Positions 5,728-14,484 of a DNA stretch of 64,000 nt are shown piece by piece. The stretch's first letter is position 1; each line of letters starts with the position of its first letter. The stretch is taken from positions 64,001 to 128,000 of the forward strand of contig CAXNJO010000004.1 of assembly GCA_964202905.1 (NCBI GenBank), read 5' to 3'. Made by a program: the position numbers and the translations under genes. A model generated the notes under the pieces. That model had not been told where the DNA came from, ran no database searches, and saw only the letters and a program-made list of their open reading frames with translations. This stretch comes from Polyangiales bacterium (GTDB taxonomy: Bacteria; Myxococcota_A; Polyangia; Polyangiales; JADJQN01).

Positions 5728-8700
5728 TCAGTAGTTGCAGCAGCGGAAGCCCGTGTTCTGGAAGCGGAACGAGCTCGAGCCGACCGTGAAGTCGAACTGG
5801 CATGTGCGCCCGATCTCGACGTTGTTGTAGCTGCCGCCGCGGATGGCGAAGACGCCCGTCGACGGGGAGGTGTTCGTCCATTCCTTCACGTTGCCGCTCA
5901 GGTCACGAACGACGCCGCCCGACCAGGTCGTGCCGCACATCGGGAACGTGGTGGAGCCCGTCGTGAAGAGCGCGTCTTGATCGCCCGCGAGCGTGGCGTT
6001 CGAGTCGTACTCGTCGCCGTTGCAGGTGAGCGTCGAGCTCGCGCGGCAGACGGTCGCCGCGCCCGCGTACGAGTAGAAACACGGGGTCGCGGCGACGGGG
6101 CCTTCGCAGGCCTCCCGCCAGTCGAGCGCGTCGCAGAGGCGCCAGCCCGTCGCGCCGCAGGTGCCCGAGGGGTTGAGCGCGCAGCACGCGGCGGCCGCCT
6201 CGGCCTGCGTCACGTTCGTCCACGGCTGCACGTTCGCGCGGGAGCACGCCACGGTTCTCGCGGCGCCCGCGCCGGTGCTGGTCGCGTCGGGGCGGGACGC
6301 CTCGTACTGCATGATTTGCATGGTGCCGCCGGCCGCCTTGTTGACGGTGACGGTGGCGATGTTTGCGAGCGGGATGCTCTCGTCGGTCGCACCGTCGCAG
6401 TCGTCGTCGAGGTTGTTGCAGGACTCGGTGGCGGCGGGGGGCCCGGCGACGACCGGACAAATGACGCCGTTCTGGGTCGCGTTGCAGCTCCAGGTGCTCG
6501 TGCGGCGGCACGCCCCGACGCCGACGGCGCACGCCGTCCCGCGCGTCGGGTAGAGCTCGTCGACCGCGCCGTCGCAGTCGTTGTCGAGGTTGTCGCAGCT
6601 CGACTCGATGGCCTGGAAGGTGGCCGGGTACGTGCAGCGCCAGCCCACCGCGCCGCCGCAACTGGCTGCGGTGCCGGCGCAGACGCCGTTCGCGTTGCAG
6701 AAGTTGGTCGGTGCGGTGAGCCCTTCGTCCGTCATGCCGTCGCAATCGTCGTCGCGGCCGTTGCACGCCTCGGCGCCGCTCACCGTGCACGCGTACTCGC
6801 ACCCATCGGCTGGGTTGCCGTTGAGGTTCACGAAGCCGGGGGCGCAGCCGCTGAGCCCGCAGACGCCCGCCGTGCAGGCCGCGACGCCGTTGGGGTAGCT
6901 GCAGCGGTTCCCGCAGGTTCCGCAGTTGTCGATGCTGGTCGACTTGTTGAAGCCGTTGTCGATGACGCCGTTGCAGTCGTCGTCGCGCTCGTTGCACGAC
7001 TCGAAGGTCGCGACGACGCCGCCCGTGCAGACGAGGACGCCGCCCGTGCAGGTCTGGGTGCCGCGTGCGCATTCGCCGGTGTCGGTGCCGCAGGCCGCAC
7101 CGCCGTCGGGGTTGCCTTCGTCCACGGACCCGTCGCAGTCGTCGTCGCGGCCGTTGCAGGACTCCGTGCCGGGGCCGACCGAACCGGTGCAGGCGAGCGC
7201 GCCGCCGGTGCAGACGTTGACGCCCGCGCTGCACTCGCCCGTGTCGCTGCCGCAGCTGGTGCCGCCGCCGGGGTTGCCCTCGTCCACGGACCCGTCGCAG
7301 TCGTCGTCGCGGCCGTTGCAGGTCTCCGTCGTGGAGCCGACCCCGCCGGCGCAGGCGAGGACGCCCGCCGAGCAGGTGATCGTCCCCGCGCTGCACTCGC
7401 CCGTGTCGCTGCCGCAGCTTGCGCCGCCGCCGGGGTTGCCCTCGTCGGTGGAACCGTCGCAGTCGTTGTCGCGGAGGTCGCAGACCTCCGTCTGCGCACC
7501 GCGCCCGCCGACGCACGCAAACGCGCCGGCGACGCAGAGTTGAGACCCCTGGCGGCACTCGCCGATGGCCGAGCCGCAGGCGCCGGGGCTGGGGATGCTC
7601 TCGTCGGTGCTGCCGTCGCAGTCGTCGTCGATCGCGTTGCAGCTCTCCGGTGTCGGATCGACGCCGCCGACGCACTCGAACGCGCCGCTGGTGCAGGTGA
7701 GCACGCCCGTCTCGCACGCGCCGGTCGCGGTGCCGCAGGCCGCGCCGCCGCCGGGATTGCCCTCGTCGATGCTGCCGTCGCAGTCGTTGTCGAGCCCGTC
7801 GCAGAGCTCGAGTGAGGCATCGACGTTGCCGGAGCATTGCAGGCTGCCCGACACGCAGACCTCGGTGCCGGTCGCGCACTCGCCGACGGCCGAGCCGCAG
7901 AGTCCGCCGCCGCCGGGGTTGCCTTCGTCGACGGTGCCGTCGCAGTCGTCGTCGACGCCGTTGCAGGTCTCGACGCCGGGTCCGACGCCGCCCGTGCAGA
8001 CGAGCGCGCCGCCCGTGCAAACGCGCGAGCCGGCTACGCACGCGCCGATGTCCGAGCCGCACGCGCCGCCGCCCCCGGGGTTGCCCTCGTCGGTGCTGCC
8101 GTCGCAGTCGTCATCGACGCCGTTGCATGACTCCGTGCCGGGGCGGACTGCCCCTTCGCAGAGGAGCGCGCCCGCGCGGCACCGGAACACGCCCGTGGAA
8201 CAGGCGCCCGTGTCGTCGCCGCACGTGCCGCCGCCATCGGGGTCACCCTCGTCGACGGAGCCGTCGCAGTCGTCGTCGAGCGCGTTGCAGGACTCGGCCG
8301 CCGCCCCTGTCGCGCCCAGGCAGACGATCGCGCCTGCGGTGCACACCGTGGTTCCCGGACTGCACTCGCCGACGTCCGTGCCGCACAGGTCGCCGCCGCC
8401 CGGGTTGCCGTCGTCGACGGATCCGTCGCAGTCGTCGTCCACCGCATTGCACGTCTCGTCGGTCGCGCCGACGGCGCCCTCGCAGACGACGACGCCGCCG
8501 CGACACGCGAGCGTTCCCGCGACGCACGCGCCCTCGTCACTGCCGCAGCTCCCGCCGCCGTCGGGGTTGCCGTCGTCGATGGCGCCGTCGCAGTCGTCGT
8601 CGAGGCCGTTGCAGACCTCGGTCACCGGGCCGACCGCGTCCGTGCAGACGAGCGCGCCGTCGGTGCAGACCTCGCGGCCCTGCGTGCAGGCGCCGGTGCC

Positions 8701-14484: not shown

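What the first reader, a model, noticed from the sequence alone, without database searches (positions are those of the whole stretch)
5728..14484. Candidate two-in-one surface polyprotein: an internal MYXO-CTERM immediately followed by an internal lipoprotein signal
Seen: in the middle of one uninterrupted 2918-aa ORF (nt ~9790-9583) is GGGGCVCDVPGG-linker-AWLATLAIAALAFG-RRRRK, then APVGARGTAR-AALTTLGAAALAFSTGG-C (Cys1634), then an acidic DAG/DLG linker. Upstream lies a complete exported adhesin-like unit (signal peptide, VWA, 20 repeats). Downstream lies a complete lipoprotein-like unit (1285 aa, 18 repeats, FGE/C-lectin-fold tip). Known: MYXO-CTERM (GGC motif, TM helix, Arg cluster) is normally a C-terminal sorting signal, and lipoboxes are normally N-terminal. 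Inference: the Arg cluster doubles as the stop-transfer of the first unit and the n-region of the second signal. A helical hairpin cut by a myxosortase and by signal peptidase II would then release two oppositely anchored surface stalks in 1:1 ratio, one tipped with VWA and one with a lectin-like fold. The only in-frame internal start candidate is a TTG that would leave a signal with no basic n-region.
Basis: partly seen in the sequence, partly recalled or inferred. Interest (0 to 1): 0.85.

Follow-up and report, generated by a model that had tools for sequence, protein, structure and literature searches.

The report
Myxobacterial two-in-one surface polyprotein
One long gene encodes two predicted surface proteins joined by a conserved back-to-back pair of membrane signals, which two housekeeping proteases likely cut, and because the repeat stalks of the two halves lengthen in lock-step across relatives, the products likely stand side by side as a two-legged adhesin.

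Summary
The 2918-codon frame is open. A short-read contig spans most of the junction without a difference. Among 110 non-redundant homologous junctions, 85 are fused and 25 split. Split forms are ordinary gene pairs: a terminal MYXO-CTERM, mostly an ATGA overlap, then an N-terminal lipoprotein signal. Fused forms keep both signals (31 of 40 pass TIGR03901; Gly at -1 in 83 of 85) but lack the second start site (start plus RBS in 7 of 83, against 22 of 25). The same hairpin joins unrelated protein pairs in this genome and across the phylum. The genome encodes MrtC, Lgt, LspA and GspD. New here: the two stalks are length-locked (20/18 repeats here; same length class in 49 of 54 homologues; range 7/7 to 28/27), also between paralogues of one genome. 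Best reading (0.65): a polyprotein cut by myxosortase and LspA into two lipid-anchored, matched stalks that likely pair. Cleavage and pairing are inferred, not shown. The window's own motif scores below the HMM cut-off. One internal MYXO-CTERM (MXAN_5598) is in print. I found no paper on the lipobox hairpin or the matched stalks.

The parts
5728..14457 (-). Whole ORF from the likely ATG start (2909 aa; 2918 aa if counted from TTG 14484, the numbering used here)
14374..14457 (-). N-terminal Sec/SPase I-type signal peptide (residues 10-37, predicted cut before Gln38)
   Evidence: sequence, hydrophobicity, homologue N-termini; SignalP not available
13576..14370 (-). Unit 1 head: VWA domain with intact MIDAS (D51, S53, S55, T175, D218)
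10633..13569 (-). Unit 1 stalk: 20 acidic Cys repeats (PF11617), mostly in 54-aa modules
9880..10632 (-). Unit 1 membrane-proximal Cys-rich domain (no Pfam match)
9790..9879 (-). Low-complexity acidic PDAG/DLG linker ending in a conserved RVLA motif
9667..9789 (-). Internal MYXO-CTERM-like signal: Cys1570 (9775-9777) and Cys1572, apolar helix 1588-1601, Arg cluster 1602-1606
9637..9666 (-). Short basic loop (1607-1616), predicted cytoplasmic; split homologues carry RBS, stop and start here
9583..9636 (-). Internal lipoprotein-type signal: 17 uncharged residues, then Cys1634 (+1), Asp at +2
9418..9582 (-). Unit 2 N-terminus: conserved DPYCxxC motif and acidic DAG/DLG tether
6376..9417 (-). Unit 2 stalk: 18 acidic Cys repeats (PF11617)
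5731..6375 (-). Unit 2 tip: FGE-sulfatase / C-type-lectin-fold domain

Best explanation
The gene encodes one polypeptide with an internal MYXO-CTERM-like signal followed by an internal lipobox signal, which likely forms a membrane hairpin that myxosortase MrtC and signal peptidase II would cut to release two lipid-anchored, length-matched stalk proteins that likely pair on the cell surface. Steps: (1) One frame, one strong start, both signals conserved in fused homologues: shown. (2) Sec exports unit 1; the first helix stops transfer; the Arg-rich loop stays inside and serves as n-region of the second signal, which re-initiates export of unit 2: inferred from topology. (3) Both Cys are acylated (Lgt or a paralogue); MrtC cuts after Cys1570/1572 and LspA before Cys1634, discarding a ~60-residue hairpin peptide: inferred from the known pathways and from split homologues that need exactly these steps. 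(4) The products are anchored at opposite ends (unit 1 at its C-end, unit 2 at its N-end), so both stalks point outward and VWA and FGE-fold heads reach the same height: matched length shown, pairing inferred. (5) T2SS carries the folded pair to the surface, where it acts as a two-legged adhesin or receptor: inferred; ligand unknown.
For: Fused 85, split 25 of 110 non-redundant junctions. Split forms have a terminal MYXO-CTERM and a normal N-terminal lipoprotein signal before the same CxxDPYC motif; 20 of 25 have a 4-nt overlap and 22 of 25 a start with RBS. Fused forms: MYXO-like motif in 83 of 85; Gly at -1 in 83 of 85 (split 14 of 25; 74 of 145 heuristic ordinary lipoprotein signals of G000); start with RBS in only 7 of 83. 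TIGR03901 above cut-off in 31 of 40 fused and 15 of 24 split segments. The second segment stays signal-like: median 16 uncharged residues (split 15), at least 19 in only 11 of 83, same hydrophobicity as split signals (p 0.33), weaker than helix 1. Cys-to-Cys distance takes 26 values from 46 to 97 aa with the frame always kept. The hairpin joins unrelated pairs: 9 intact cases in G000 and 29 of 32 fetched phylum regions. The OmpA/barrel partners follow an SPase I-type site (L159, L212, L217, L221, L223), and a barrel must leave the inner membrane. Machinery present: MrtC 242.7 against 195, LspA, Lgt, GspD. Stalk locking: repeat rho 0.96, n=40; same module class in 49 of 54; 15 and 15 changes on the tree, 16 jointly; rho 0.95, n=60, range 7/7 to 28/27 (overlapping set). 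Paralogues in one genome have different but internally matched lengths (JAXMNT01: 0/0, 0/0, 4/4, 11/11). Asp at +2 in 59 of 85 fused fits Lol avoidance as described for PulA (PMC12802150, passages). Guo et al. 2025 show MrtX cutting C-terminally tagged substrates and propose processing of the internal tag of MXAN_5598.
Against: No protein-level evidence: no cut, lipid or product was observed. The window's motif is below the TIGR03901 cut-off (9.9-10.9 against 20), and that of L127 gave no TIGR03901 hit at E 0.5. The internal lipobox is non-canonical at -3 (Thr; strict [LVI][ASTVIG][GAS]C in 21 of 85 fused against 13 of 25 split). Whether MrtC accepts a substrate with a second helix is untested. 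The strict independent-pairs test of stalk locking gave 5 same, 0 opposite (p 0.06, too few pairs); 5 of 54 rows do not match. Lipidation of MYXO-CTERM itself is still a hypothesis in the literature. The fused-to-split ratio is biased by junction-spanning queries.
Confidence: 0.65

Rival explanations
1. The hairpin is cut at only one site, or at none. The protein stays as a two-helix-anchored chain with both stalks outside, or one unit keeps the hairpin as its anchor. The Cys residues may be acylated or may just be relics of the split ancestor.
For: Matched stalks fit this topology equally well. The -3 position of the internal lipobox is mostly small, not Leu. The uncharged run is slightly longer in fused than in split forms (16 against 15, p 0.008). 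Guo et al. report that some uncleaved TraA still reaches the surface without MrtX. The window clade's MYXO-CTERM scores are low.
Against: Both Cys and the -1 Gly persist across deep branches and unrelated families. Every fused protein with the unit 1 domain that was inspected kept a hairpin. The second segment has not become a full helix. Split homologues do the same job as two processed proteins. Barrel-type partners need release from the inner membrane.
Confidence: 0.22
2. The two products are processed as in the best explanation but do not bind each other; the stalks match only because both heads must reach the same target or height.
For: No direct evidence of binding was obtained. Stalk modules show no register-specific similarity between units (57% between, 56-59% within). 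Head types vary (VWA, DUF4114, large unnamed heads) while the FGE tip is kept in several.
Against: Height is pair-specific, not genome-specific. Matching is to the single module in 49 of 54. It also holds in split operons (9 of 11 split rows) and in a second family with DUF4114 and BNR tips (7/7, 5/5, 11/10).
Confidence: 0.25
3. Unit 2 is mainly made from an internal in-frame start (TTG 9630 or similar), so these are two overlapping genes whose stop codon was lost, and the read-through form matters little.
For: A few fused junctions have a usable start (4 of 83 with RBS, basic residue and 14-45 aa signal; P0073 has Met right after the Arg cluster). 75 of 83 hold some ATG/GTG/TTG between the two Cys.
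Against: Start with RBS in 7 of 83 fused against 22 of 25 split; ATG at or after the Arg cluster in 7 of 83. GGAG followed by ATG/GTG in any frame in 3 of 83 loops. The window's TTG has no RBS and would leave a 15-residue signal with no basic residue.
Confidence: 0.06
4. Assembly artefact: an indel in an error-prone assembly fused two genes.
For: G000 does carry apparent frameshifts in paralogues (L161, L162).
Against: A short-read contig is identical over 9619-9896. Fusion is seen in 85 non-redundant loci from many assemblies, in the two closest relatives, and in a Sandaracinus amylolyticus isolate protein, WP_236604012.1.
Confidence: 0.01

Closest known systems
MXAN_5598 of Myxococcus xanthus (internal MYXO-CTERM; Guo, Haft, Wall 2025, PMC11980579, Discussion read)
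   Same: Adhesin-like unit, internal MYXO-CTERM, then a second exported unit; proposed gene fusion with the first part processed and surface-anchored.
   Different: There the second unit is an OM beta-barrel with OmpA domain, and the case is called rare and atypical. The parts read do not describe a second internal signal, a lipobox or a two-cut scheme. Here the second unit is a lipoprotein-type stalk, the design is common, and the stalks are length-locked.
TraA/TraB operon (PMC3325183, passages)
   Same: MYXO-CTERM protein with a Cys-rich stalk and lectin-like head whose gene overlaps its partner by 4 nt, like 20 of 25 split forms here.
   Different: TraA has a PA14 head and other repeats, TraB is an OmpA-domain protein, and the genes are separate. 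No homology to TraA was tested or claimed.
Other internal sorting tags: engineered LPXTG (Navarre and Schneewind 1994) and an archaeosortase substrate with a non-terminal tag (Abdul Halim 2017); titles only, from the reference list
   Same: A tripartite sorting tag can work away from the C-terminus.
   Different: As recalled, what follows those tags stays in the cytoplasm; here a second signal exports the downstream unit.
Internalised prolipoprotein signals (Hayashi 1985; Coleman 1985; titles only) and Bradyrhizobium FbcH cytochrome b-c1 polyprotein (recalled, not retrieved)
   Same: A bacterial signal peptidase can act on an internal signal; one gene gives two membrane products.
   Different: The first are engineered fusions. 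FbcH is a single family with one SPase I-type cut. A natural sortase-plus-LspA double cut was not found in these searches.
Viral glycoprotein polyproteins (bunyavirus Gn/Gc; search listing) and integrins (recalled)
   Same: Anchor-loop-signal hairpins that yield heterodimers at 1:1; two-legged receptors with a VWA/MIDAS head on Cys-rich legs.
   Different: Analogy only: unrelated sequences, enzymes and folds of the legs; integrin chains are separate genes with helix anchors.

Membership tests
MYXO-CTERM (TIGR03901) | Cys-containing signature, apolar helix, Arg cluster | tested here: met
   Window 1566-1606; 83 of 85 fused homologues by pattern
MYXO-CTERM (TIGR03901) | Score above the curated cut-off of 20 bits, for the window's own motif | tested here: not met
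   9.9-10.9 bits
MYXO-CTERM (TIGR03901) | Score above cut-off in homologous internal motifs | tested here: met
   31 of 40 fused segments scanned (40 of 80 available) against 15 of 24 split
MYXO-CTERM (TIGR03901) | Located close to the C-terminus | tested here: not met
   1313 residues follow; it works like the tag at best, it is not a canonical member
MYXO-CTERM (TIGR03901) | N-terminal signal peptide and a myxosortase in the genome | tested here: met
   Residues 10-37; MrtC NF040594 242.7 bits, cut-off 195
MYXO-CTERM (TIGR03901) | Cys-dependent cleavage and surface display | not testable with these tools
   Needs protein work
Lipoprotein (SPase II) signal | Basic n-region, short h-region, small residues then Cys | tested here: met
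   RRRRK and two further Arg, 17 uncharged residues, Gly-Gly-Cys1634; G/A/S at -1 in 85 of 85 fused
Lipoprotein (SPase II) signal | Canonical Leu/Val/Ile at -3 | tested here: not met
   Thr in the window; strict lipobox in 21 of 85 fused, 13 of 25 split; L/V/I in 76 of 145 heuristic G000 signals
Lipoprotein (SPase II) signal | N-terminal position with its own start codon | tested here: not met
   Internal; start with RBS in 7 of 83 fused. It is N-terminal in the 25 split homologues.
Lipoprotein (SPase II) signal | Diacylglyceryl transfer and LspA cleavage | not testable with these tools
   Enzymes present; reaction untested; SignalP not available
MXAN_5598 / TraAB-like fusions | Second unit is an OM beta-barrel with OmpA domain | tested here: not met
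   Window's unit 2 is PF11617 repeats plus PF03781; OmpA found in other hairpin proteins
VWA domain | Rossmann-like VWA fold with MIDAS | tested here: met
   (Pfam alone below cut-off)
FGE-sulfatase / C-type lectin fold (PF03781) | Profile and fold match | tested here: met
   25.1 bits against 23.3; weak Foldseek matches all of this fold
FGE-sulfatase / C-type lectin fold (PF03781) | Catalytic FGE site or glycan binding | not tested
   No residue-level comparison made; the public 'nonheme iron enzyme' names are automatic

The most novel reading that the evidence does not exclude
Myxococcota use a general, portable polyprotein linker: sortase tag, Arg loop, second signal. Two different membrane proteases cut it to deliver partner surface proteins at 1:1. 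Its flagship cargo is an unrecognised family of two-legged, integrin-like heterodimeric adhesins whose two Cys-rich legs are held to the same length, module for module, from 7 to 28 repeats.
Probability: 0.45. Interest if true: 0.9.

Novelty: new variant of a known kind. Interest (0 to 1): 0.78.

Why it matters
If true, polyprotein processing, thought exceptional in bacteria, is routine in a whole phylum, and many large myxobacterial 'single' proteins are mis-annotated pairs (names such as 'MopE-related protein' or 'SUMF1/EgtB/PvdO enzyme'). The fusions name the functional partners of MYXO-CTERM proteins, for example glucoamylase with alpha-amylase, or adhesin with OmpA barrel. They place a MYXO-CTERM Cys and a lipobox Cys side by side in one substrate, which gives a direct test of the open question whether Lgt acylates MYXO-CTERM. 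The length-locked legs are a rare natural molecular ruler and point to a new class of bacterial two-chain adhesins. A cultured strain carries the fused form, so all this is testable.

Tried and rejected
Complex prediction of VWA head with FGE tip (40-row alignments): no answer, score 0.25 against a mark of 0.32, controls not folded; it is not used either way. NCBIfam on the whole protein gave 0 families; the second query of that call was out of frame. The neighbouring CPBP gene at 2606-3256(-) was considered as the myxosortase and rejected (Mrt_core 19.3 against 100); MrtC lies on contig C8. Runs X1-X3, X5, X7, X8 gave no long near-identical contig across the loop and second signal, and no run covers 9583-9618 that way; all are contigs, so expression is not shown. 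Register-specific similarity between the two stalks was not found. The direction of change (fusion or fission) was not settled: 7 changes on a FastTree tree of 105 of 110 rows, against a shuffled mean of 22.6, with no outgroup and no AU test. The hairpin-profile tally (289 of 401 genomes) was not used as a count, because it also hits terminal tags and only 15 candidates per genome were scored. Literature: MYXO-CTERM (24 papers, 20 listed); polyprotein/lipobox terms; TraAB fusion; PF11617 and Polyangiales. None of the listed titles describes a MYXO-CTERM-lipobox hairpin or matched stalks. 'Internal lipobox' had no occurrence in the rows listed (40 of 197, 40 of 60). The Haft preprint has 0 occurrences of internal, fusion, fused or polyprotein. 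Subscription papers (Sah 2020, Haft 2024 final text, Abdul Halim 2017, Hayashi 1985) were not read. The supplement text of PMC11980579 held no row for MXAN_5598, so Table S1 may show more than I saw. Earlier scan findings were not available.
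Full report
Observation. The frame 14484-5728(-) is open for 2918 codons, with coding-type GC3 throughout. 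The likely start is ATG 14457 behind AGGAG. At residues 1566-1634 lie, in order, a Gly-rich CxC motif, a spacer, an apolar helix, RRRRK, a 10-residue loop, 17 uncharged residues and Cys1634. Upstream are a signal peptide, a VWA domain with intact MIDAS, 20 PF11617 repeats and a Cys-rich domain. Downstream are an acidic tether, 18 repeats and an FGE/C-lectin-fold tip. Relatives' records read Polyangiales, Sandaracinaceae or Myxococcota, and the genome has the MrtC type of myxosortase, so it is likely a Polyangiales member.

Artefact check. This mattered, because G000 has apparent frameshifts in two paralogous hairpin genes. A short-read contig from run X6 matches 9619-9896 with no difference or gap; this spans the place where split homologues have their stop. 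An X4 contig covers 9641-9932 without gaps. The last 36 nt before the end of Cys1634 are not covered this way, but the closest relatives L112 and L127 are fused in frame.

Fused and split forms. I examined 154 loci (29, 77, 43, 5 own-genome regions) and called a junction in 148. I removed 4 truncated ones, exact duplicates, 7 near duplicates and 4 unclassified rows (own_C1b frameshifted, L072 motif variant that is fused by eye, L091 and L125 with no partner found). That left 110: 85 fused and 25 split. One of the 85 (L111) looks frameshifted inside the hairpin. The ratio is biased towards fused by the queries. Split forms are ordinary operons: terminal MYXO-CTERM, RBS inside the Arg/Gly tail, 4-nt overlap in 20 of 25, normal lipoprotein signal. 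Fused forms keep the MYXO-like motif (83 of 85) and Gly at -1 (83 of 85), but have a start with RBS in only 7 of 83, against 22 of 25. On TIGR03901, 31 of 40 fused segments (every second one of 80) and 15 of 24 split ones pass the cut-off. The window's own motif does not (9.9-10.9 bits). The second segment stays short and weakly apolar, like the N-terminal signals of split genes (Hessa values recalled). The Cys-to-Cys distance takes 26 values without losing the frame. The state changes 7 times on a 105-row tree (shuffled mean 22.6); the direction is unresolved. Of 121 long proteins (120 plus the query), 80 passed the junction filter. Another 12 showed a profile hit or a visible hairpin with a variant motif in that output. 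Of 29 misses re-inspected, all 12 with the unit 1 domain showed a hairpin by eye; most of the rest begin with a lipoprotein-type signal and are only distantly related. One fused protein is from a cultured species, S. amylolyticus WP_236604012.1.

The hairpin is a general linker. In G000, 3 of the 22 TIGR03901 hits that pass the cut-off on their own are internal, each followed by a lipobox. With weaker hits and an independent scan (23 terminal, 9 internal, 8 of these with a second signal) there are 9 intact cases: 7 lipobox and 2 SPase I-type, plus 2 frameshifted candidates. The joined pairs include GH15 with CBM/alpha-amylase, amidase with an unnamed lipoprotein, NIDO with a PF11617 lipoprotein, Ig-like with OmpA barrel, M10 protease with a small protein, and DUF4114 with BNR. 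From a profile search of 401 genomes I fetched 32 regions, chosen for near full-length matches. 29 are internal hairpins (about 20 lipobox, 8 SPase I-like, 1 unclear; 4 belong to the window's family; 1 has only 78 residues upstream) and 3 are terminal tags. Twelve of the genomes are from other classes of the phylum. Partners include OmpA barrels behind SPase I-type sites, a GDSL lipase, a C-type lectin and an RHS protein. This is a selected sample, not a census.

Length-locked stalks (new). Repeat numbers of the two units correlate at rho 0.96 in 40 complete VWA+FGE cases, with a difference of 2 in 27 and 1 in 9. Expressed as 54-aa modules over a base, the two stalks fall in the same class in 49 of 54 (0/0, 2/2, 4/4, 8/8, 11/11). 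The misses are L024, L086, L096 and two members of a divergent subfamily. Each stalk changes class 15 times on the tree and the pair 16 times, so nearly all changes coincide. Contrasts gave r 0.97 with 20 same-sign and 0 opposite. The stricter independent-pairs test gave 5 to 0, too few for significance. An overlapping protein set extends the range to 28/27 (rho 0.95, n=60). Matching holds in split operons (9 of 11) and in the DUF4114/BNR family. Paralogues within one genome differ in height but are internally matched, so the constraint is on the pair and not on the cell envelope. As unit 1 is anchored at its C-end and unit 2 at its N-end, equal stalks put the two heads level. This independently supports the hairpin topology and suggests a heterodimer; binding itself is not shown.

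Mechanism. Shown: one reading frame, conserved signals, no second start, equivalence to split operons, matched stalks, and the enzymes MrtC, Lgt, LspA and GspD. Inferred: stop-transfer and re-initiation at the hairpin; acylation of both Cys; cuts by MrtC and LspA; pairing; T2SS export. Asp at +2 in 59 of 85 fused forms (8 of 25 split) fits inner-membrane retention before T2SS export as for PulA (PMC12802150, passages), though sorting rules differ between taxa. I put the double cut at 0.65, an uncut or singly cut protein at 0.22, an internal start at 0.06 and an artefact at 0.01. Non-binding partners (0.25) overlap the first.

Comparison with the known. Guo, Haft and Wall 2025 (PMC11980579; abstract, introduction, part of the results and most of the discussion read) show Cys-dependent cleavage by MrtX. 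They note one internal tag, MXAN_5598, fused to a barrel/OmpA unit, and call such cases rare. The Haft preprint (passages) defines the tag as close to the C-terminus. TraA and TraB overlap by four bases (PMC3325183, passages). Titles in reference lists indicate that internal sorting tags and internalised prolipoprotein signals can be processed; I did not read these papers. FbcH and integrins are recalled. So an internal MYXO-CTERM is known from one case. The lipobox hairpin, its spread over unrelated families and the matched legs were not found in my searches. The window's signals work like MYXO-CTERM and a lipoprotein signal, but fail membership on position, and on score or the -3 residue.

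Verdict. A real, conserved feature; a new variant of known sorting systems with a strong unexplained regularity; interest 0.78.

Noticed in passing
L157 (G000:C6:126200-130800); relatives such as L202-L205, L207, L208: An unnamed family of about 830 + 450-560 aa with the same hairpin recurs across the phylum sample. It has no Pfam or NCBIfam name above cut-off; Atlas leads are Ig-like and LBP/BPI-like, at 0.90 or less. The first unit itself seems to start with a Cys-rich lipoprotein-like signal.
   Followed up: partly
G000 C1, C2, C4, C7, C10: Seven PF01790 (Lgt) matches above cut-off at six places, against one LspA: candidates for the unknown MYXO-CTERM acyltransferase.
   Followed up: no
L158 (G000:C6:352800-358200): The hairpin joins a GH15 glucoamylase-like unit to a CBM/alpha-amylase lipoprotein: a starch-degrading enzyme pair in one ORF.
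   Followed up: partly
L159, L212, L217, L221, L223: MXAN_5598/TraAB-like fusions: adhesin, internal tag, SPase I-type signal, barrel with OmpA domain.
   Followed up: partly
L209 (G135:C342): Hairpin with SPase I-type site followed by an RHS/YD-repeat protein.
   Followed up: no
fused junctions: Internal lipoboxes are almost always small-small-Gly-Cys, stricter at -1 than ordinary ones, and so resemble the MYXO-CTERM signature; one acyltransferase may read both.
   Followed up: partly
window 2606-3256(-): CPBP/Rce1-like intramembrane protease 2.5 kb downstream; well below all myxosortase cut-offs.
   Followed up: yes
window 3468-5060(+), 14992-16737(-), 21844-23556(-), 26821-29790(+): Neighbours are a receiver-GAF-HD-GYP-like protein, a 7TM-HD hydrolase, SRP54/Ffh and a 5'-3' exonuclease-domain gene. 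No link to the finding was tested.
   Followed up: no
L161, L162, L163: Apparent frameshifts in G000 paralogues, probably assembly indels; L162 has an intact hairpin in the next frame.
   Followed up: partly
L057, L061, L064, L065, L070, L073, L077, L082: A split clade with a large (about 1200 aa) non-VWA head on the same stalk, and the same length matching where measured.
   Followed up: partly
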